From contig JACAUB010000001.1 in NCBI GenBank assembly GCA_013390605.1, positions 5,054,250 to 5,118,249 of the forward strand: a stretch of DNA of 64,000 nucleotides, written 5' to 3'. This DNA is from Bacteroidota bacterium (lineage in GTDB: Bacteria; Bacteroidota; Bacteroidia; Bacteroidales; Cfx3-03). The translations under genes were made by a program, and so were the position numbers. Below the pieces are notes generated by a model. It did no database searches. It saw only the letters and a list, made by a program, of their open reading frames with translations, and was not told the origin of the DNA. Of the stretch, positions 40,317 through 48,600 are shown one piece after another. Position 1 is the first letter of the stretch; every line of letters begins with the position of its first letter.

Positions 40317-41723
40317 TTATCTTTCCTCATTATACACCTGTAGTTCAGCTATAGATGCCTGATGATCCGCTTTTTCAATAGAGATTCTTATCTTGTTTCC
40401 CCAAACCCTTTCAAAGCGATGAATCTTGATTTTATTCTTATTTTCACCTTGAAATAGAGTCTTCCAAACCCCACTCTGGCAATATTCCAACTTGTAGTTA
40501 CTAATATTAGGACGTTCCTCTGCAACTACAATGGTATTAAACCCCTTCTCCTGTGCAAAATCAATTTCATACCATGGGTTCTTTACTTCAGGGTTAGAGA
40601 TCCAGGAAGAATGAAAATCATCATCATTGGCAAAATCCATAATATTCATATCATCGCTCCAGCTTGAATTTGCAGCTTGTCCTTTAGCCAGATTGGTTGA
40701 GATAATTGGTGCCTCTAATTGTGGAAGCTTAGTTACGGGCCCTTCATTTTTCCAGAGCTTTCCTATTTCCTTTAGTGCTGTCAATGCATTATCATCGAAT
40801 AGTCCATCCCGGTTGGGAGCTACATTTAAAATGAAATTACAATCTACATTATTAAAAGGGATGATATTTTCATTGACTAACTTCGCTGGATCTTTAACTG
40901 GTTTTGTTGGAAAATCAGTTTTCCAGAACCACGAGCCGTTTAATGGTAAGCATGCCAAGGCTGGCATATTATTATGCTCTTTGGATATGCGCTGACCGGC
41001 ACCCATTTCGTAAGTTTTAATATCGGTATAATACAAGCCTTCGGCAGGATATTTAGCACCGTTTAAATCCATGATAACACAATTTGGCTGTAAAGCTTTT
41101 ACCAAATGATATATATCCTCAAAGGGTATGTCGTCATAAGATATTCTTGACCATGGAGCATCCCATCCATCAATAATTAATGCTTCAATAGGGCCATAGT
41201 TGCTTAACAGCTCGGTTATCTGGGCTTTTATCATTTCAAAATGTTGCGGCTTAATAGCATTTGGCCGAAGCTTATGATGGGTGTCAAGGATAGAATAATA
41301 CAGCATTACTTTTAATCCATTGGCTCTAAAAGCATTTACGAATTCTCTCACCACATCTTTTTTAAACGGACTGTTCATCACATTATAATCAGTTGTTTTC
41401 GTATCCCAGATACAAAAGCCGCTATGATGTTTTGTCGTTAAACAGCCATAACTCATATTCGCTGATTTGGCAGCTTTAGCCCATTGATCACAATCTAATT
41501 TTTTAGGATTAAATAGACTGGGAGAGGTTTCCGGGTCAGGCCAATCCTGGTTTGTATAAGTTGGAATGTTGAAATGGATAAACATCCCGAATCTTAAATC
41601 CACAAATTGTTGTTGAAGTTTTGAAAGCGGTAGTGGGGATCTGGTAATGTTGTTTTGTGCTTTTAATTGATGTGTTCCTAAAAGTAGTAAACAGAGGGTA
41701 AAAACAATAGATCTTGTTTTCAT
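40317..41723 (-). CDS. alpha-L-fucosidase, GH29, with C-terminal F5/8-like domain
   Basis: RFGMFIHF, TTKHHSGFCIW, YYSILD, ILNVAPNRDG. Confidence 0.9.
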   Translation of the reverse strand: MKTRSIVFTLCLLLLGTHQLKAQNNITRSPLPLSKLQQQFVDLRFGMFIHFNIPTYTNQDWPDPETSPSLFNPKKLDCDQWAKAAKSANMSYGCLTTKHHSGFCIWDTKTTDYNVMNSPFKKDVVREFVNAFRANGLKVMLYYSILDTHHKLRPNAIKPQHFEMIKAQITELLSNYGPIEALIIDGWDAPWSRISYDDIPFEDIYHLVKALQPNCVIMDLNGAKYPAEGLYYTDIKTYEMGAGQRISKEHNNMPALACLPLNGSWFWKTDFPTKPVKDPAKLVNENIIPFNNVDCNFILNVAPNRDGLFDDNALTALKEIGKLWKNEGPVTKLPQLEAPIISTNLAKGQAANSSWSDDMNIMDFANDDDFHSSWISNPEVKNPWYEIDFAQEKGFNTIVVAEERPNISNYKLEYCQSGVWKTLFQGENKNKIKIHRFERVWGNKIRISIEKADHQASIAELQVYNEER

Positions 41724-41862: not shown

Positions 41863-43113
41863 TTATAGTCTGACTTGTCCGTCCCCATCCACCAGCCATT
41901 TATAACTGGTTAGTTCTTCAAGTCCCATTGGTCCACGTGCATGTAATTTCTGGGTACTGATGCCTATTTCAGCACCTAACCCAAATTGTGCCCCATCGGT
42001 AAAGGCAGTAGAAGCATTCACGTAGATAACTGCTGCATCAACTAATTTTTTATATCTGTCGGCAATAATCTTGTTCTCAGTAATAATAGCTTCACTATGT
42101 TTCGAACTGTATTGTGCAACATGAGCTAAAGCCTCATTAAAGTTTTCTACTGTTCGGATTGACATTTTGTATGATAGAAACTCTGTTGAATAACTATCCT
42201 CTGTTGAGGGTTTTAAAAGTTCGGCAGGATAAAAGCCAAATAGTACTTCGAACGCTGATTTATCTGCGAAAATCTCTACATTGCTTTCCGCTAGTTTTTC
42301 ACATAAATAGGGGAGTTCCTTCAATCGGCGATGATTAATAATTAAACAGTCTAAAGCATTGCAAACACTTACCCTGCGTGTTTTTGCATTGGTTATGATG
42401 GCTTGTCCTTTTTCAGCATTACCATATTCATCAAAGTATGTGTGACAAATCCCTGCACCGGTTTCAATCACCGGAATTGTAGCGTTCTCCCTGACAAAAT
42501 CAATGAGAGCCTGGCTTCCTCGAGGTATGAGTAGATCAACATAATTACGTGCCTTCAAAAGTTGGGCTGTTGCTTTGCGTTCGGGAGGAAGCAGACTGAC
42601 CAGATTAGGATCAACATGGTGCTCAATGAAAACATTGCGAATAATGCTAACAATGGCACGATTTGAGCAATCTGCGTCGCTCCCCCCTTTCAACACACAA
42701 ACGTTTCCAGACTTTAAACATAATCCGGCCACATCAAACGTTACATTAGGTCGCGATTCGTAAATAATACCAATCACTCCAAATGGTACGCTCACTTTTT
42801 TTATAGTTAACCCATTAGGGCGAATAGTTTCTGAAAGTATGCTTCCAAGTGGAGATGGAAGTGCCTCTACGTTTTTTAAATCGGTAGCAATAGCCTCAAT
42901 ACGACTGGTAGTTAATGTGAGACGGTCATATCTTGGATCGGCTGGGTCCATGCGTTCAAGATCTTTTGCATTCTCATCAAGAATATACTGCATGTTGGAA
43001 ATAGCTGCATCTGCAATGCAATCAATCAATTGATTGATCTGTTCACTTGTTAGGAGTGCTGTAGTCTGAGTTGCTTCTTTTGCCGATCTTAATATGGCTT
43101 CAGTTGTATTCAT
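41863..43113 (-). CDS. proA: gamma-glutamyl phosphate reductase
   Basis: [55 protein letters not shown]. Confidence 0.97.
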
Positions 43114-43152: not shown

Positions 43153-44253
43153 TTAAGTATTAGATTCGAAAAGATAAAGATGATCATAGTGAATTATGGG
43201 TTGTTTTTTCTTTTTCCCTGCCAACTCGCCGGCTTTTTCAGAATCATAAAGTGTTTTTCCTAATCCAATCTCCTCTCCATGCTGATCAATAATCTTGATA
43301 ATATCCCCTTTTTTGAAAAATCCTTTAATGCCGGTTACTCCTATTAGCAAAAGACTGGATGCCTTATCCGAAAGGAGTGCTTCGCAGGCTCCCTCATTGA
43401 TCAACACTTCTCCTTTTGTGAAGCTGTCAGAATGTGCTAACCACTTTTTGATACTTGATGATTTTTTTTCATTAGGAACAAAATGAGTGTTTAATACAGA
43501 TGAGGCTGAATCCAGCAAATCGATCAGGATATTGTCACTCTTGCCGTTGGCAATATGAACATGAATTCCCTGTTCTGCAATCTTACGGGCAATGGTCATT
43601 TTTGTAATCATCCCACCTCTTCCAAATTCTGATTTAGAGGTTTGGATATAATCAGACAAGTCGGAAGTGTCAGGTTGTACTACTCTAATTACTTTTGCAT
43701 CCGGGTTGTCCGGATGGTCTGTAAAGATGCCATCAATATTACTTAGAATGATCAGTGCCTCGAGATCCATCATTGTTGTAATGAGTCCTGAAAGTTCATC
43801 GTTGTCTGTAAACATGAGTTCTGTTACAGAAATTGTGTCATTTTCATTAATGACAGGTAAAACATTATTCTCTAGCAATGTGTTCAGACAGTTCTTCATA
43901 TTCAGATAATGCCTTCTGTCTCTGAAATTATCTTTTGTCGTGAGTACCTGTGCACAAATAATTCCATATTCGCTAAACAGATCATAATAACGATTGATTA
44001 AACGTACTTGTCCAACTGCAGACCATAGTTGACGTGAAGAGACCGTGTCAAGTTTATTCTTAGGGTGTACTTCGCTACGGCCGGCAGCAACAGCACCTGA
44101 AGAGATCAGGATAATTTCAATGCCTTCTTTTTTCAAGCGAGCTATTTGGTCGGCTAGTTGAGCCATTCGTGCAATGTCAAGGGTCCCATCGGCTCGTGTA
44201 AGCACATTGCTTCCTACTTTTACTGCAATTCGTTTGTATCTGCTATTCATCAT
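43153..44253 (-). CDS. proB: glutamate 5-kinase with PUA domain
   Basis: VKVGSNVL, SSGAVAAG, NENDT, DNDELS, GRGGMITK. Confidence 0.97.
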   Translation of the reverse strand: MMNSRYKRIAVKVGSNVLTRADGTLDIARMAQLADQIARLKKEGIEIILISSGAVAAGRSEVHPKNKLDTVSSRQLWSAVGQVRLINRYYDLFSEYGIICAQVLTTKDNFRDRRHYLNMKNCLNTLLENNVLPVINENDTISVTELMFTDNDELSGLITTMMDLEALIILSNIDGIFTDHPDNPDAKVIRVVQPDTSDLSDYIQTSKSEFGRGGMITKMTIARKIAEQGIHVHIANGKSDNILIDLLDSASSVLNTHFVPNEKKSSSIKKWLAHSDSFTKGEVLINEGACEALLSDKASSLLLIGVTGIKGFFKKGDIIKIIDQHGEEIGLGKTLYDSEKAGELAGKKKKQPIIHYDHLYLFESNT

Positions 44254-44263
44254 TAATTGGTAT

Positions 44264-44293
44264 AAAAAAAATCCGAAGATTGCTCTCCGGATT
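44264..44293 (-). terminator. attenuator terminator in the proB 5' leader
   Basis: Minus strand AATCCGGAGA-GCAA-TCTTCGGATT then T-run, ending 10 nt before the proB ATG; GNRA loop; no long co-oriented gene upstream. Confidence 0.85.
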
Positions 44294-44340
44294 CAGATTA
44301 TTTCATTGTTAAACAAAGTAGTTTTAAGAAAACAGTAAAG

Positions 44341-44463
44341 CTAATCTGTATTGACAATCATATCCGGAGAAAAAAAACATAAAACAAGCGGTCGGCCTGT
44401 ATAAGCTGATAGAGCCTGAGGTCGTGTAACTGCGTGTAGTAAATATGTTTTATTTTTGATCAT
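44341..44463 (-). CDS. putative 40-aa leader peptide of proBA (MIKNKTYLLHAVTRPQALSAYTGRPLVLCFFSPDMIVNTD)
   Basis: ATG ~30 nt downstream of a -7 box; its last 10 codons contain the sequences complementary to the terminator 5' arm. Confidence 0.65.
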   Translation of the reverse strand: MIKNKTYLLHAVTRPQALSAYTGRPLVLCFFSPDMIVNTD

Positions 44464-44492
44464 CAGATTGATTCGATTTGCTTTTGATAAAG

Positions 44493-44500
44493 CAAAGATA
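44493..44500 (-). promoter_or_regulatory. -7 promoter element for leader-proBA
   Basis: TATCTTTG on the minus strand (TAnnTTTG). Confidence 0.65.
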
Positions 44501-44800
44501 ACAAAAGTGATTTTAAACATATTGAAAATTAGCAAAATGAATAATAAATAACACAATTGGGTGATATTATTATAATTTTTAACATGAATATATTCTGAAA
44601 ATAGCACTTAATATTGATACGAAAACAGGCTTTTATGCTACTAATTCATTTTGAAATCATATTTATATCTTTGCTTTAATGTAGACGCTTTTATTTTTAG
44701 CAATTTGGGTATCTAAAGCAAGTCACAGCTCTATACCACAAAATAAATAACCTGTATAAAATTAGGAAGCGATAAATCAAAATAAGAAATAACACCTTTT

Positions 44801-45010
44801 ATTCTCCAAATAATCATTGATAATGGAGGTATAATGATGCTTCAATCCCCAAAGTATTCTATTTGCTTACTCCATGATTTCACCATGCCTCCCATTATTT
44901 GCAGGAGTCATGGCGGAAGGATGCCGGATCCACGCCGGACTCACACCGGACCCAATGGTAGTTATATATCTGATATAGAATTGTATAACCTGTGTTAAAA
45001 TAGGGAAATC
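44801..45010. repeat. intergenic hairpin + phased 11-bp repeat element, copy B
   Basis: Collinear with 6061-6270 at offset 38740; GGA units at 44904, 44915, 44926, 44937, 44948; more degenerate stem. Confidence 0.9.
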
Positions 45011-45178
45011 GAGGAAGGAGAGATTGTAATCTTTTGATTATTAATATAATATTGTTTGAAGTAATGTGACTTATATAAAAAACGGAAGCTTTAATAATTA
45101 AACGTTTTTTGTTGTAAGCAACGGCTTTAACTTTTTTATCTTTGATCATAAATGCAAACTTTTTAATACGCTGAGTCA

Positions 45179-45901
45179 ATGGATGCATCATTATTATTTA
45201 GCGAGATCAGAGATTTTTGTCTATCTAATGCGAATGTGGAGGTCGCTAAGAGCTCTCAACGTTTCTTCAAAGAACACTACGATGGATATGGACTTACAGC
45301 TCCGCAAGTTCATCAAAAAGTAAAAGAGCTGTTACATAAAAAGGAGCTAAATCAATCCATTATTTTATCAGCAATGCCAATGTTTTTGGAGAATGGAAAA
45401 TACGAGGAGATCTCTTTAGGTCTTTTACTCTTAAATGGCTTCTCAAAACAATTTACAAGAGAGACATTTAACGAAATCAGTACATACTTTTCGAAAAGCA
45501 TCGATAATTGGGCACATGCTGATATTCTTGGAATGTTCATCTTGCCTAAATTTCTCCTTCAAAACATTGTTGAATTAAATGATTTTGATACGTGGATCTC
45601 TTCTCCTTACAAATTCCAGCGGCGATGTATTCCGGTTACTTTTATTAAACCTGTTAAAGTAAAAAAAGAAGTATCTACTTATATCGATTTTGTCAAAACC
45701 TTAATGGATGATAAAGAAAGAGAGGTGCATCAAGGGATGGGATGGTTTTTGCGAGAAGCCTGGAAGATTGAACATAAAGAGGTAGAAACTTTTTTATTTG
45801 ATCGAAAGGAGACTGCTCCCAGGTTGATCGTTCAATATGCTTGTGAGAAAATGACGGCAGAAGAGAAAAAGCGTTTTAAAAGAACTGATCAAAAAAGGTA
45901 A
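45179..45901 (+). CDS. DNA alkylation repair protein (AlkD-like HEAT-repeat glycosylase)
   Basis: IDNWAHAD, FQRR, VHQGMGWFLREAWK, YACEKM. Confidence 0.85.
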   Translation: MDASLLFSEIRDFCLSNANVEVAKSSQRFFKEHYDGYGLTAPQVHQKVKELLHKKELNQSIILSAMPMFLENGKYEEISLGLLLLNGFSKQFTRETFNEISTYFSKSIDNWAHADILGMFILPKFLLQNIVELNDFDTWISSPYKFQRRCIPVTFIKPVKVKKEVSTYIDFVKTLMDDKEREVHQGMGWFLREAWKIEHKEVETFLFDRKETAPRLIVQYACEKMTAEEKKRFKRTDQKR

Positions 45902-46521: not shown

Positions 46522-48600
46522 ATGAAAACAACATTACTCTTACTCTTCTTTATCGCATTAACAATGGTCGTTACCAGTCAGAATCCCAAACGATTCAATG
46601 ATGCACAGTTAATCTCCACCGGTGTTTACTATTATCCCGAACATTGGGATCCATCGCAGTGGGAACGCGATATCAAAAACATAGCCGATATGGGTTTTGA
46701 ATATACCCATTATGCTGAATTTGCCTGGGCACAGTTAGAACCTGAAGAAGGGAAGTATGATTTTGCATGGCTTGATAGAGCTGTCGAACTTGCTGCTAAA
46801 TACAAGATTAAAGTTATCATGTGTACTTCAACCTGTACACCTCCCGTTTGGCTTGTACGTAAGCATCCTGATATACTTGAGAAAGAAGAGAATGGTACAA
46901 GTCTGGATCATGGATCACGTCAACATGCATCTTTCTCAAATAACTATTACAGACAATATGCCTTGAAGATGATTGCTGAGTTGGCAAAACATTATGGAAA
47001 CAATAAAACGATAATGGGTTGGCAAATCGATAACGAACCTCGTGCTTTCTATGATTTCGGTAATGATGCTCAACAACGTTTTCGCGATTGGTTAAAACAA
47101 AGATACAAGACCATAGATGCTTTAAATGCAGCCTGGGGTACCTCTTTCTGGAGTGAAGTATACAGCGACTTCTCACAAATTAATATTCCTTTACGTTCGC
47201 AATGGGGAATGAATTATAATCAGGTGTTAGATCATAACCGTTTTGTAGCCAACGAAACTGCAACGTTTCTTGATGATCAGGCTAAGGTGGTTCGTAAATA
47301 TGTTTCACCTGAACAATGGATTACTTCTAACTATATTCCAAATATCACCGAGGGCTATATTGGTGCCAGTCATGAACTCGATTTTGTTACCTACACTAAA
47401 TATATGGTCTTTGGCCAGTATAAAGGGGTGGGGAAAAAAGGATATCGTATGGGAAATCCTGAAAACATCTCTATTCCTAACGATTTCTTCCGACCATTAA
47501 CTTCGGGTGTCTATGGGGTGATGGAACTTCAGCCTGGCCAGGTTAACTGGGGCTCTATTGATGCTCAGCCTGCCCCTGGTGCCGTACGTATGTGGTTGTG
47601 GCATGTCTTTGCAGGTGGAAGTAAATTGGCTTGTACCTATCGTTTCCGTTCTCCATTGACGGGTTATGAGCAATATCATTATGGCATCATGAGTTATGAT
47701 GGAGTTACTCCAACACCGGGCGGACTAGAATTTCAGCAGTTTATGAAAGAGATTACGCTACTTCGTAAACAATATGACCCTTCTGCAAAGGTTCCTTCAG
47801 ATCTTGCCAGGAGAAAAACTGCTATCCTTTATAATTATGAAAATGTATGGGGAATGGAACAAAACAAGCAGACCACTGAGTGGAGTTCTTTAGGCCATAT
47901 CAACAAATATTATCTTCCATTGAAATCTTTCGGTGCAGGGGTCGATTTCATTAAAGATTCAATGGACTTCTCAAAATATCCTGTTCTGATTGCTCCAGCT
48001 TATCAGCAAATAGACAAAGCCTTAATTGAAAAGCTTACCAACTATGTTAAGAATGGTGGTAATTTGGTAATGACTTGTCGTTCCGGGCATAAAGATCGCG
48101 AGATGCATCTTTGGGAATCTAAATTTGCAGAACCTATTTATGATTTAATCGGCTCTGAAATAGAATTCTACGATTTGCTAATGCCTCATGCACCCGATAC
48201 CATTAAAATGGATAACAACAAATATGGTTGGACAAGTTGGGGTGAAATTCTGAAACCTAAAGCAGGTACTGAAACATGGGCAACCTATCAGGGTGATTTC
48301 TACGCCGGTAAACCTGCCGTAATATTTCATAAATTGGGTAAGGGAACTGTTACTTATGTAGGCGTAGATAGCAAAAATGGTGATATGGAACTCGCGGTTC
48401 TTAAAAAGTTATATAAGAAACTAGCTATTCCAGTGATGAATTATCCAACCGGAGTGATGGTTGAATACAGAGATGGCTTTGGGATTGCTGTAAATTATTC
48501 AGATAAGAATTACGATATGCCATTACCTGCAAATAGCGAAGTATTGATTGGTAAAAAGGTTATCAAGCCTGCTGATGTATTGGTTTGGAAAATAAAATAA
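46522..48600 (+). CDS. beta-galactosidase, GH42
   Basis: YYPEHW, EFAWAQLEP, WQIDNE, MELQPGQVNW, EQYHYG. Confidence 0.94.
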   Translation: MKTTLLLLFFIALTMVVTSQNPKRFNDAQLISTGVYYYPEHWDPSQWERDIKNIADMGFEYTHYAEFAWAQLEPEEGKYDFAWLDRAVELAAKYKIKVIMCTSTCTPPVWLVRKHPDILEKEENGTSLDHGSRQHASFSNNYYRQYALKMIAELAKHYGNNKTIMGWQIDNEPRAFYDFGNDAQQRFRDWLKQRYKTIDALNAAWGTSFWSEVYSDFSQINIPLRSQWGMNYNQVLDHNRFVANETATFLDDQAKVVRKYVSPEQWITSNYIPNITEGYIGASHELDFVTYTKYMVFGQYKGVGKKGYRMGNPENISIPNDFFRPLTSGVYGVMELQPGQVNWGSIDAQPAPGAVRMWLWHVFAGGSKLACTYRFRSPLTGYEQYHYGIMSYDGVTPTPGGLEFQQFMKEITLLRKQYDPSAKVPSDLARRKTAILYNYENVWGMEQNKQTTEWSSLGHINKYYLPLKSFGAGVDFIKDSMDFSKYPVLIAPAYQQIDKALIEKLTNYVKNGGNLVMTCRSGHKDREMHLWESKFAEPIYDLIGSEIEFYDLLMPHAPDTIKMDNNKYGWTSWGEILKPKAGTETWATYQGDFYAGKPAVIFHKLGKGTVTYVGVDSKNGDMELAVLKKLYKKLAIPVMNYPTGVMVEYRDGFGIAVNYSDKNYDMPLPANSEVLIGKKVIKPADVLVWKIK

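What the first reader, a model, noticed from the sequence alone, without database searches (positions are those of the whole stretch)
44254..44500. Complete leader-peptide transcription attenuator in front of proBA
Seen on the minus strand, in order: a -7 promoter (44493-44500); a 40-codon ORF (44463-44341); and a GNRA-looped terminator with a U-tract ending 10 nt before proB. The ORF's 3' end carries TCTCCGGAT (44370-44362) and CAGATTA (44348-44342, overlapping the stop codon). These are perfectly complementary to ATCCGGAGA (terminator 5' arm, 44292-44284) and TAATCTG (44300-44294), giving a two-helix antiterminator that excludes the terminator. Pro codons lie at 15, 25 and 33; the first two are each preceded by an Arg CGA codon (TRPQ, GRPL). 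Inference: a ribosome paused at Pro15/Pro25 leaves the antiterminator free and proBA is read through, whereas one reaching the last codons blocks it. Known precedents: proBA is T-box controlled in Bacillus subtilis, and Pro-codon leaders (mgtL, mgtP) control Mg-transport genes in Salmonella. I know of no described ribosome-mediated attenuator for proline biosynthesis in Bacteroidota. Caveat: only three non-tandem Pro codons, so the sensor could be an RP-type arrest motif or another signal.
Basis: partly seen in the sequence, partly recalled or inferred. Interest (0 to 1): 0.85.

Follow-up and report, generated by a model that had tools for sequence, protein, structure and literature searches.

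The report
Leader-peptide attenuator before proline genes
A short conserved upstream reading frame followed by a transcription terminator sits directly in front of the proline-synthesis genes proBA, and most likely lets the cell switch these genes on when proline for protein synthesis runs short.

Summary
The 40-codon frame, the promoter box and the terminator are kept in all 3 relatives whose proB upstream DNA could be read (L002, L003, L024). A fifth peptide (P0003) is in the protein collection.

- **Conservation.** Arg-Pro at codons 14-15 and 24-25 is invariant in 5 of 5 peptides. It is always written CGA-CCT and CGA-CCG in the 4 DNA copies. The rest of the peptide drifts (pN/pS 0.36-1.11).
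- **No separate promoter.** The T-tract ends 10 nt before the proB ATG.
- **Genomic context.** The same genome has classical leader-peptide attenuators before hisG, trpE, trpB, pheA, ilvD, asnB and cysE.
- **Weaker points.** The proB leader has no run of Pro codons. The antiterminator is strong in 2 of 4 copies and weaker in the other 2.
- **Distribution.** The element is confined to one genus-level lineage.
- **Data gaps.** No RNA data were available.

Verdict: a real ribosome-mediated attenuator, probably proline-sensing, and a new variant of a known kind.

The parts
44493..44500 (-). Bacteroidota-type -7 promoter box TATCTTTG (TAnnTTTG), 29 nt before the leader ATG
   Evidence: Sequence. 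Kept as TATCTTTG in L002 and L003 and as TACCTTTG in L024. The same box lies 19-26 nt before the leader ATG of the hisG, trpE, asnB and trpB leaders of this genome. The consensus itself is recalled knowledge.
44341..44463 (-). Leader ORF: 40 codons plus TAG
   Evidence: A 40-codon ORF with aligned start and stop is present in L002, L003 and L024. No indels fall inside it. The other two frames carry stops in nearly all copies. Gene callers extend it to 59 aa from ATG 44520, but that extension is closed in L003 (open frame 47 aa).
44419..44424 (-). CGA-CCT, Arg14-Pro15: proposed sensor codon pair 1 (block RPQA)
   Evidence: Invariant in 4 of 4 DNA copies and 5 of 5 peptides. No conserved RNA helix covers it.
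44389..44394 (-). CGA-CCG, Arg24-Pro25: proposed sensor codon pair 2 (block RPLV), exactly 10 codons after pair 1
   Evidence: Invariant in 4 of 4 DNA copies and 5 of 5 peptides. It sits in the loop of hairpin H1. Its first base is 21 nt upstream of the antiterminator strand.
44384..44400 (-). Hairpin H1: ACAGGC-CGACC-GCTTGT (codons 22-27), possibly an RNA polymerase pause hairpin
   Evidence: In the 10-pair extended form, 3 pairs change on both sides and 87.5% of cells are paired. Its function is inferred.
44362..44370 (-). Antiterminator 5' strand TCTCCGGAT (codons 32-34)
   Evidence: A perfect 9-nt complement of 44284-44292, reached in 2 of 5000 shuffles. Pair counts: 6 pairs never vary, 1 is compensatory (UA to CG in L024) and 3 cells are broken.
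44345..44351 (-). 5' strand ATACAGA of the conserved spacer hairpin; pairs with 44311-44317
   Evidence: RNAalifold consensus. 7 pairs, 1 compensatory (AU to GC in L024), 96.3% paired.
44311..44317 (-). 3' strand TTTGTTT of the spacer hairpin
44294..44300 (-).
   Evidence: Invariant in 4 of 4 copies, but its partner is CAAACTA in L003. No covariation. It coexists with the terminator in the minimum-energy fold.
44264..44294 (-). Intrinsic terminator: stem GAATCCGGAGA / TCTTCGGATTT, loop GCAA, T-run to 44264
   Evidence: 100% of cells are paired in 4 sequences, with 2 one-sided changes. It is present in L002, L003 and L024.
43153..44253 (-). proB, glutamate 5-kinase (366 aa), starting 10 nt after the T-run
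   Evidence: TIGR01027, 333.2 bits against a cut-off of 186.
41863..43113 (-). proA, glutamate-5-semialdehyde dehydrogenase (416 aa)
   Evidence: NF001221, 517.2 bits against a cut-off of 289.

Best explanation
This is a ribosome-mediated (leader-peptide) transcription attenuator of the proBA operon.

**Proposed mechanism.**
1. Transcription starts a few bases after the TAnnTTTG box at 44500-44493.
2. The 40-codon leader is translated while RNA polymerase moves on.
3. If nothing holds the ribosome, it runs over codons 32-40. There it covers the antiterminator strand (codons 32-34) and the sequence around the stop codon.
4. The terminator at 44294-44264 then forms, and transcription ends 10 nt before proB.
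5. If charged tRNA-Pro is scarce, the ribosome waits with Pro15 or Pro25 in its A site. Both codons are preceded by Arg CGA. The segment at codons 32-34 stays free and pairs with the terminator's 5' arm as soon as that arm emerges, so proBA is read through.

**Shown.**
- The parts exist.
- They are conserved.
- There is no room for a second promoter.
- The genome uses this type of control at 7 other operons.

**Inferred.**
- The ORF is translated.
- Pro15 and Pro25 are the sensing codons.
- The ribosome positions decide the fold.
For: 1. **Anatomy.** The -7 box, the 40-codon ORF, the 11-bp terminator with 8 T and proB 10 nt further on are all present.
2. **Conservation of the frame.** All 3 relatives with readable upstream DNA (L002, L003, L024) keep a 40-codon ORF with aligned start and stop. 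Gaps lie only outside it. The other frames carry stops in nearly all copies.
3. **What is conserved matches a leader peptide.** Overall pN/pS is 0.36-1.11. R14 P15 Q16 A17, R24 P25 L26 V27, S32 P33 and N38 are invariant in the 4 aligned peptides. RPQA and RPLV also stand in P0003.
4. **Control in the same genus.** In the pheA leader only the Phe/Tyr run is invariant. Its own CGA-CCT (R13 P14) is lost in G002 and G003. By analogy, the invariant blocks of the proB leader mark its regulatory codons.
5. **House style.** A genome-wide scan found 20 terminators placed just before long ORFs. Seven have leader ORFs with runs of the cognate residue: hisG HHHHHH, trpE WWW, trpB WWW, pheA FFFFYFFYFY, ilvD IIVVIILLL, asnB NNNN and cysE CCCIC. 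The 41-codon pheA leader also has its antiterminator strand inside the ORF's 3' end, at codons 36-39.
6. **Antiterminator.** The 9-nt perfect complement was reached in 2 of 5000 shuffles (window) and 4 of 5000 (L003). One pair is compensatory in L024. With the 3' arm blocked, this pairing is the best fold in 4 of 4 sequences (-23.2, -18.1, -20.0 and -15.5 kcal/mol). The terminator state scores -25.2, -25.6, -22.3 and -23.1.
7. **Ribosome masks.** Masking a ribosome footprint at Pro15 or Pro25 leaves the antiterminator in window, L002 and L003, and at Pro15 only in L024. Masking at Pro33 removes it.
8. **Relatives without the element.** They carry a plain promoter box or a neighbouring gene in front of proB.
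Against: - **No enrichment and no run of Pro codons.** Pro is 3 of 40 codons against 3.95% genome-wide. Every other leader in this genome has a run.
- **Uneven antiterminator.** The longest perfect complement is 6 nt in L002 (437 of 5000 shuffles) and 5 nt in L024 (1922 of 5000). L002 has a C.A mismatch and L024 has two broken pairs.
- **Stop-codon geometry.** In thermodynamic folds the antiterminator also forms with no ribosome and with a ribosome masked at the stop codon. Termination therefore depends on timing, which I could not test. Codons 32-34 lie just behind a ribosome sitting on the stop.
- **Peptide-level conservation.** Q16 and A17 are kept through synonymous changes. This hints at selection on the peptide, not only on codons.
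- **Small data set.** Only 4 DNA copies from one lineage exist, so covariation statistics are weak (control (a): 5 of 500).
- **No expression data.**
Confidence: 0.6

Rival explanations
1. Arrest-peptide attenuator. The nascent chain (RPQA ... RPLV ... SP) interacts with the ribosome tunnel and stalls translation. Stalling might depend on free proline or another metabolite. The position of the stalled ribosome then sets terminator or antiterminator. This would work like TnaC or SpeFL rather than by tRNA charging.
For: - Conserved residues are spaced along the last 27 residues, and they are amino-acid conserved through synonymous changes (Q16 CAG/CAA, A17 GCT/GCC, S32 TCT/TCC).
- No Pro run is present, unlike the runs in the 7 other leaders.
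- From recall, TnaC ends in Arg-Pro-stop.
Against: - The rest of the peptide is free to vary, and the N-terminal 13 residues are unrelated in L024.
- No match to any family.
- The same genome uses plain codon-run leaders at 7 other operons.
- The nucleotide invariance of CGA, CCT and CCG is not explained by a peptide-only model.
Confidence: 0.12
2. The ORF is incidental or only a spacer. A trans-acting factor (an RNA-binding protein) or a ligand binds the two CGACC motifs or hairpin H1 and decides between terminator and antiterminator.
For: - CGACC occurs twice, 30 nt apart, and is invariant at the nucleotide level. One copy sits in the loop of a covarying hairpin.
- The pair CGACC-N25-CGACC occurs once in the genome.
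Against: - The 40-codon frame, start and stop are kept in a copy whose first 13 codons are unrelated (L024), and indels avoid the ORF.
- Nothing reached any Rfam family's gathering score; the best were MicC at 26.7 bits against 90 and L31-Firmicutes at 22.4 against 33.3.
- One occurrence of the motif pair is what chance gives (expected 1.4).
- No candidate binding protein is encoded next to the operon.
Confidence: 0.1
3. The sensor is arginine, or arginine and proline together. The invariant CGA codons are read only by tRNA-Arg(ACG/ICG), so a shortage of that charged tRNA would stall the ribosome at the same two places.
For: - Arg CGA is invariant at both sites in 4 of 4 DNA copies, although CGA is only 14% of Arg codons.
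- Only the anticodons ACG, CCG, CCT and TCT were found among 49 tRNAs.
Against: - The operon makes proline precursors, and proC is present elsewhere.
- Two single Arg codons are a weak sensor compared with the runs of 3 to 10 codons in the other leaders.
- No link of proBA to arginine synthesis was tested.
Confidence: 0.08
4. Not a regulator. It would be an independent small gene or small RNA with its own promoter and terminator. proBA would then be expressed by constant leakage through the terminator.
For: - Gene callers annotate a 59-aa hypothetical protein here.
- The element is confined to one lineage, while relatives express proB from a plain promoter.
Against: - There is no room for a proB promoter after the terminator (10 nt).
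- A strong terminator (11 bp, T8) with no bypass would starve an essential biosynthetic operon.
- A complement to the terminator arm lies inside the ORF.
- The design is the same as at 7 amino-acid operons of this genome.
Confidence: 0.07

Closest known systems
Classical leader-peptide attenuators of amino-acid operons (trpL, hisL, pheL of Proteobacteria; recalled). The 7 leaders found in this same genome belong to the same kind.
   Same: - Promoter, short ORF, alternative antiterminator/terminator and first biosynthetic gene, in that order.
- The antiterminator strand lies at the 3' end of the ORF, as in this genome's pheA leader.
- Codons of the pathway's end product lie upstream of that strand.
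   Different: - No run of cognate codons: three single Pro codons, two of them in invariant CGA-CCN pairs exactly 10 codons apart.
- No conserved 1:2 pairing that would enforce termination without translation.
- The spacer between the stop codon and the terminator is longer, 46 nt against 24-34 nt.
Salmonella mgtL and mgtP Pro-codon leaders. Only the search listing and abstracts of PMC3641672, PMC5299641 and PMC6460261 were seen; the details are recalled.
   Same: Pro codons in a short leader ORF couple translation speed to transcription of downstream genes.
   Different: Those leaders control Mg2+ transport and virulence genes, not proline synthesis. mgtP uses consecutive Pro codons that depend on EF-P. 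They occur in a different phylum and show no sequence similarity.
T-box control of proBA in Bacillus subtilis
   Same: The same operon, the same logic (uncharged tRNA-Pro leads to read-through) and the same output (an intrinsic terminator).
   Different: A T-box reads the tRNA directly without translation. No T-box match was found here in an Rfam scan with E up to 10.
Inhibitory codon pairs CGA-CCG and CGA-CGA of yeast. Seen: the abstract of 10.1101/755652 and passages of the review PMC7829197.
   Same: The same codon pair, CGA followed by a Pro codon. In yeast it leaves the A site empty, and extra tRNA partly rescues it. That is the property a tRNA-supply sensor needs. Here CGA must also be read by an ACG-derived anticodon.
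   Different: It has been shown in yeast only, and the review says so for bacteria. In this genome CGA-CCN pairs are not avoided: 186 of 1420 Arg-Pro pairs (13.1%) against a 14% CGA share.

Membership tests
Ribosome-mediated (leader-peptide) transcription attenuators | A short ORF lies between the promoter and the first structural gene and is kept open in relatives. | tested here: met
   A 40-codon ORF with the same start and stop in 4 of 4 DNA copies. No indels fall inside it. The other frames carry stops in nearly all copies. Translation itself is not shown.
Ribosome-mediated (leader-peptide) transcription attenuators | An intrinsic terminator lies between the leader ORF and the structural gene, with no promoter after it. 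| tested here: met
   An 11-bp stem, a GCAA loop and T8 ending 10 nt before the proB ATG. It is kept in L002, L003 and L024 with 100% of cells paired.
Ribosome-mediated (leader-peptide) transcription attenuators | An antiterminator excludes the terminator, and one of its strands lies where a translating ribosome can cover it. | tested here: inconclusive
   Codons 32-34 are complementary to the 5' arm. The complement is 9 nt in window and L003 (2 and 4 of 5000 shuffles), 6 nt in L002 and 5 nt in L024. There is 1 compensatory pair and 3 broken cells. It is the best alternative fold in 4 of 4 sequences.
Ribosome-mediated (leader-peptide) transcription attenuators | Codons of the cognate amino acid lie at conserved positions upstream of the antiterminator strand. 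| tested here: met
   Pro15 and Pro25 are invariant in 5 of 5 peptides. Pro25 begins 21 nt before the strand.
Ribosome-mediated (leader-peptide) transcription attenuators | A run or clear excess of the cognate codons (typical of the family rather than strictly defining). | tested here: not met
   3 of 40 codons, none adjacent, against a genome Pro frequency of 3.95%. All 7 other leaders of this genome have runs.
Ribosome-mediated (leader-peptide) transcription attenuators | Read-through rises when the cognate amino acid or its charged tRNA is limiting. | not testable with these tools
   This needs Term-seq, reporter or in vitro assays.
T-box leaders (Rfam RF00230, accession recalled) | A specifier loop and a T-box antiterminator that match the covariance model. 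| tested here: not met
   cmscan of 43900-45300 with E up to 10 lists 5 weak matches and no T-box.
Known Rfam amino-acid leader families (His, Trp, Thr, Leu leaders, Bacteroid-trp; names recalled) | A match to a curated model. | tested here: not met
   No such family appears. The 7 other leaders of this genome also give no Rfam match at E up to 0.01.

The most novel reading that the evidence does not exclude
The sensor is not a run of codons. It is two invariant CGA-CCN codon pairs placed exactly one ribosome footprint (10 codons) apart.

- With CGA read by an inosine anticodon in the P site, decoding of the next Pro codon becomes slow and unusually dependent on the supply of charged tRNA-Pro. 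This is what happens with the yeast inhibitory pair CGA-CCG.
- A ribosome held at Pro25 would make the next ribosome queue with Pro15 in its A site. This would give a switch-like response from single Pro codons.
- The design would avoid consecutive Pro codons, which stall ribosomes whatever the proline supply.

If true, this would be the first bacterial use of an inhibitory codon pair as a metabolite sensor, and the first leader-peptide control of proline synthesis.
Probability: 0.2. Interest if true: 0.75.

Novelty: new variant of a known kind. Interest (0 to 1): 0.55.

Why it matters
- **Gap in known regulation.** In the cases I recall, proline synthesis is controlled by feedback inhibition of ProB (E. 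coli) or by a T-box (Bacillus). I found no leader-peptide attenuator for proBA in print. The searches were made, plus passage searches in PMC2965389, PMC9723704 and PMC1262725. These cover open-access text only.
- **A design question.** Proline is an awkward signal for this mechanism, because runs of Pro codons stall ribosomes on their own. This element shows one way a cell may solve that: single Pro codons in a fixed Arg-CGA context at a fixed spacing.
- **A testable set.** The genome has eight leader-peptide attenuators of one design (His, Trp twice, Phe/Tyr, Ile/Val/Leu, Asn, Cys and this one). None is matched by Rfam. That makes it a good set for studying attenuation in Bacteroidota, where translation initiation and promoters differ from the model organisms.
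- **Limit.** The element is confined to one genus-level lineage.

Tried and rejected
- **Known RNA families.** cmscan of 43900-45300 at E up to 10 gave only 5 weak matches: MicC 26.7 bits against a gathering score of 90, L31-Firmicutes, two snoRNAs and IsrM. All are below gathering and were rejected.
Rejected. It coexists with the terminator and has no covariation.
- **A conserved pairing of the 5' UTR with the codon 32-34 segment (a '1:2' helix).** It appears in the full-length folds of window and L002 only and not in the alifold consensus. Not adopted.
- **The 59-aa ORF from ATG 44520 as a real protein.** No Pfam or NCBIfam match. The extension is closed in L003 and overlaps the promoter box. 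Rejected in favour of the 40-codon ORF.
- **Wider homologues of the leader.**
  - Blastn of the leader against 103 loci found only L001, L002, L003 and L024.
  - The peptide profile over 401 genomes of the order gave 27 genomes at E up to 0.05, of which only the 3 of the own genus (G000, G001, G002) are real. I inspected 5 of the others (L120-L124): all lie in or on the opposite strand of long coding regions. The rest, at E 0.015-0.05, were not inspected.
  - The pattern scan of genome contigs gave 39 stretches. Two are the known relatives (L170, L171). L143 and L166 are chance matches in GC-rich coding DNA. The other 35 were judged by title only (other phyla).
- **G003.** Its proB contig ends 16 nt upstream of the gene, and no other contig holds the leader.
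- **A paralogous link to the pheA leader** (shared CGA-CCT and AAAACATAT). Rejected. The spacing and frame differ, and the pheA Arg-Pro is not kept in G002 and G003.
- **RNA evidence.** No RNA holder was listed.
- **Read laying on two DNA runs.** X2 holds an identical 202-nt piece. X1 holds low-depth (2-4) contigs of a relative. Differences could be read only at 44295-44374 and 44437-44516. Codons 14-15 and 24-25 lie near contig ends and could not be read.
- **Tools and files not available.** Supplementary tables of PMC9723704, which list its structured 5' regions, could not be seen and might name a proB leader in Flavobacterium.
Full report
**1. Observation.**
- TATCTTTG lies at 44500-44493.
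- An ATG at 44463 opens 40 sense codons that end with TAG at 44343-44341. The peptide is MIKNKTYLLHAVTRPQALSAYTGRPLVLCFFSPDMIVNTD.
- The four complementary segments are TCTCCGGAT (44370-44362), CAGATTA (44348-44342), TAATCTG (44300-44294) and ATCCGGAGA (44292-44284).
- The hairpin is GAATCCGGAGA-GCAA-TCTTCGGATTT with a T-run to 44264.
- Ten bases later proB starts at 44253 (TIGR01027, 333 bits), followed by proA (NF001221, 517 bits).
- Nothing in Rfam reaches a gathering score.

The leader folds better than its shuffles (z = -2.77). A 9-nt perfect complement to the terminator's 5' arm in the 190 nt upstream was reached in 2 of 5000 shuffles.

**2. Relatives.**
A proB search of 41 related genomes found the gene in 20. 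I read the upstream DNA of 15 loci.
- The two same-genus genomes G001 (L002) and G002 (L003) carry the whole leader.
- In the third, G003, the contig ends 16 nt before proB, and no other contig holds the leader.
- The 11 loci from other families show a neighbouring gene or a different upstream sequence with no matching leader.

Other searches gave the same narrow picture.
- Of 80 metagenome loci found with ProB, 1 (L024, ProB 77% identical) has a terminator within 150 nt upstream.
- Of 89 loci with at least 200 nt upstream, I printed the 25 with the longest gaps. Only L002, L003 and L024 end in a terminator hairpin. Many of the others have a TAnnTTTG-like box about 20-25 nt before the ATG.
- The peptide profile over 401 genomes of the order found only the own genus.
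- A pattern scan of the genome collection (185,579 species by the tool's description) found only the two known relatives.
- The protein collection holds three gene calls of a 59-aa version. One of them (P0003) is a fifth, otherwise unseen, peptide.

The element is real, inherited, and confined to one genus-level lineage.

**3. Is the ORF a coding frame?**
- All four DNA copies have exactly 40 codons with aligned start and stop.
- The alignment puts gaps in the 5' UTR, in the spacer after the stop and in the terminator loop, but none in the ORF.
- The other two frames carry stops in nearly all copies.
- The 59-aa extension is closed in L003 (open frame 47 aa) and overlaps the promoter box.
- Overall the peptide is not under strong purifying selection (pN/pS 0.36-1.11). 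The first 13 residues of L024 are unrelated to the others.
- Conservation is concentrated in R14 P15 Q16 A17, R24 P25 L26 V27, S32 P33 and N38. The two Arg-Pro blocks are also present in P0003.
- At the DNA level, CGA-CCT and CGA-CCG are invariant, while neighbouring codons show synonymous changes.

This pattern is what a leader peptide shows: an open frame of fixed length, a free sequence, and a few fixed codons.

**4. Context in the genome.**
A scan for strong terminators placed 5-90 nt before a long ORF, and not behind another gene, gave 20 sites. Seven besides proB have a short ORF with a run of the cognate residue before an amino-acid gene:
- hisG: MNFITLHHHHHHT...
- trpE: ...NNWWWR...
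- trpB: ...YWWWH...
- prephenate dehydratase: ...FFFFYFFYFY...
- ilvD: ...IIVVIILLL...
- asnB: ...LLNNNNL...
- cysE: ...CCCIC...

Four of the seven, and the proB leader, have a TAnnTTTG box 19-29 nt before the leader ATG. The 41-codon pheA leader has its antiterminator strand inside the ORF's 3' end (codons 36-39), as the proB leader does (codons 32-34). So this organism uses leader-peptide attenuation as its standard control of amino-acid operons, and the proB element is built the same way.

The pheA leader serves as a control. In the four genomes of the genus only its Phe/Tyr run is invariant. Its own CGA-CCT, present in G000 and G001, is lost in G002 and G003. The invariant blocks of a leader in this genus therefore mark the regulatory codons. 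In the proB leader those blocks are the two Arg-Pro pairs.

**5. RNA structures.**
- *Terminator.* 100% of cells are paired, with two one-sided changes.
- *Antiterminator (codons 32-34 with the 5' arm).* Of 9 pairs, 6 are invariant. One is compensatory (U-A to C-G in L024). One cell is broken in L002 (C.A) and two in L024. The perfect complement is 9 nt in window and L003, but only 6 nt in L002 and 5 nt in L024. Even so, with the 3' arm blocked it is the best fold in 4 of 4 sequences.
- *X1 relative contig.* A low-depth contig (X1, depth 4) changes the fourth base of the strand from C to T. This keeps a G.U pair and turns Pro33 into Ser. A single contig at this depth may be in error.
It has no covariation and is broken twice in L003.
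- *Competing helix.* AUACAGA:UUUGUnU fits the L003 change (G.U to A-U) and has a compensatory A-U to G-C pair in L024.
- *Hairpin H1.* A further conserved hairpin (codons 22-27, extended in L003 and L024 by different, compensating pairs) shows CGACC of Arg24-Pro25 in its loop. In three of four copies it is followed by a U-rich stretch. I read it as a possible pause hairpin, which is inference.

Four related sequences cannot give reliable covariation statistics.

**6. Mechanism.**
Footprint masks were applied to the transcript cut before the 3' arm.
- A ribosome with Pro15 or Pro25 in the A site leaves the antiterminator in place in window, L002 and L003, and at Pro15 only in L024.
- A ribosome at Pro33 removes it.
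- The antiterminator also forms with no ribosome and with a ribosome masked on the stop codon.

In this model termination therefore needs a ribosome passing over codons 32-40 while the polymerase makes the terminator. The strand lies just behind a ribosome that waits on the stop. This timing is the least secure step.

Proline sensing is inferred from the operon's function, from the fixed Pro codons and from the house style. It is not inferred from codon excess, because Pro is 3 of 40 codons against 3.95% genome-wide.

**7. The Arg-CGA context.**
- The genome's tRNA set (49 found) has Arg anticodons ACG, CCG, CCT and TCT only. By established knowledge of bacterial tRNA-Arg(ACG), CGA must then be read through inosine wobble.
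- CGA is 14% of Arg codons. CGA-CCT is 5.1% and CGA-CCG 1.7% of Arg-Pro pairs.
- In yeast, CGA-CCG is an inhibitory pair that leaves the A site empty and is partly rescued by more tRNA (abstract of 10.1101/755652). The review PMC7829197 notes that this has been shown in yeast, not in bacteria.
- This suggests that the pair makes single Pro codons sensitive to tRNA-Pro supply.
- The 10-codon spacing equals about one ribosome footprint (recalled).
- Against this reading, CGA-CCN pairs are not avoided in this genome's genes: 186 of 1420 Arg-Pro pairs, or 13.1%.

I give this reading about 0.2.

**8. Rivals.**
The rivals are an arrest peptide, a factor that binds the CGACC motifs, arginine sensing, and a non-regulatory small gene. 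Each is set out with its evidence in its own section. None explains the whole pattern as well as the attenuator. The arrest-peptide reading cannot be excluded from sequence alone.

**9. Novelty.**
Full-text searches and passage searches in three papers found no leader-peptide attenuator of proBA. PMC9723704 reports strong clues for leader-peptide attenuation upstream of amino-acid biosynthesis operons in Flavobacterium. It names conserved 5' elements upstream of pheA and hisG, and does not mention proline in the main text. Its supplements were not available. I rate the finding a new variant of a known kind. It is interesting for its sensor design and for the eight-member set of attenuators. 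It is limited by its narrow distribution and by the lack of expression data.

Noticed in passing
Own genome outside the window: L127 (hisG), L128 (pheA), L129 (trpE), L130 (ilvD), L131 (asnB), L132 (cysE), L133 (trpB): Seven classical leader-peptide attenuators with runs of the cognate residue: HHHHHH, FFFFYFFYFY, WWW, IIVVIILLL, NNNN, CCCIC and WWW. None matches any Rfam family at E up to 0.01. As far as I recall, Asn and Cys leaders are rarely described.
   Followed up: partly
Own genome, contig C1, minus strand, position 2458379 in reverse-complement coordinates: A second Cys-rich short ORF (MENMILNLHTCCCSCRTITCWGCCVFKYD) with a terminator lies before a 146-aa ORF. It may be another Cys-responsive leader. 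The downstream gene was not identified.
   Followed up: no
window 44341-44520 (-): Gene callers annotate a 59-aa hypothetical protein here and in two relatives (P0001-P0003). It is most likely the 40-codon leader ORF wrongly extended across its own promoter box.
   Followed up: yes
Own genome, contig C1, 3424040 (+), 3444790 (+) and 1816431 (minus strand, reverse-complement coordinates): Three identical copies of a short ORF (MQSRAAEMLLLVFIDF) plus a terminator lie 71 nt before the start of a 654-aa ORF (MSELNKDFIENGSYNADNIQ...). This could be a large repeat or an assembly duplication.
   Followed up: no
window 44883-44922 (+): A weak match to the L31-Firmicutes ribosomal protein leader (22.4 bits against a gathering score of 33.3, E 0.055). 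Probably chance.
   Followed up: no
window 40317-41723 (-), 45179-45901 (+), 46522-48600 (+): proBA is flanked by an alpha-L-fucosidase with an F5/8 type C domain, a DNA alkylation repair protein and a GH42 beta-galactosidase. The proline operon sits alone among unrelated genes. proC lies elsewhere (C1:3292389-3293153).
   Followed up: partly
G029, 10 places: An 8-Mb genome of the same order has 10 identical copies of a 70-aa open frame with one in-frame TAG that weakly matches the leader profile (E 0.03). It is probably a repeated mobile element unrelated to this finding.
   Followed up: no
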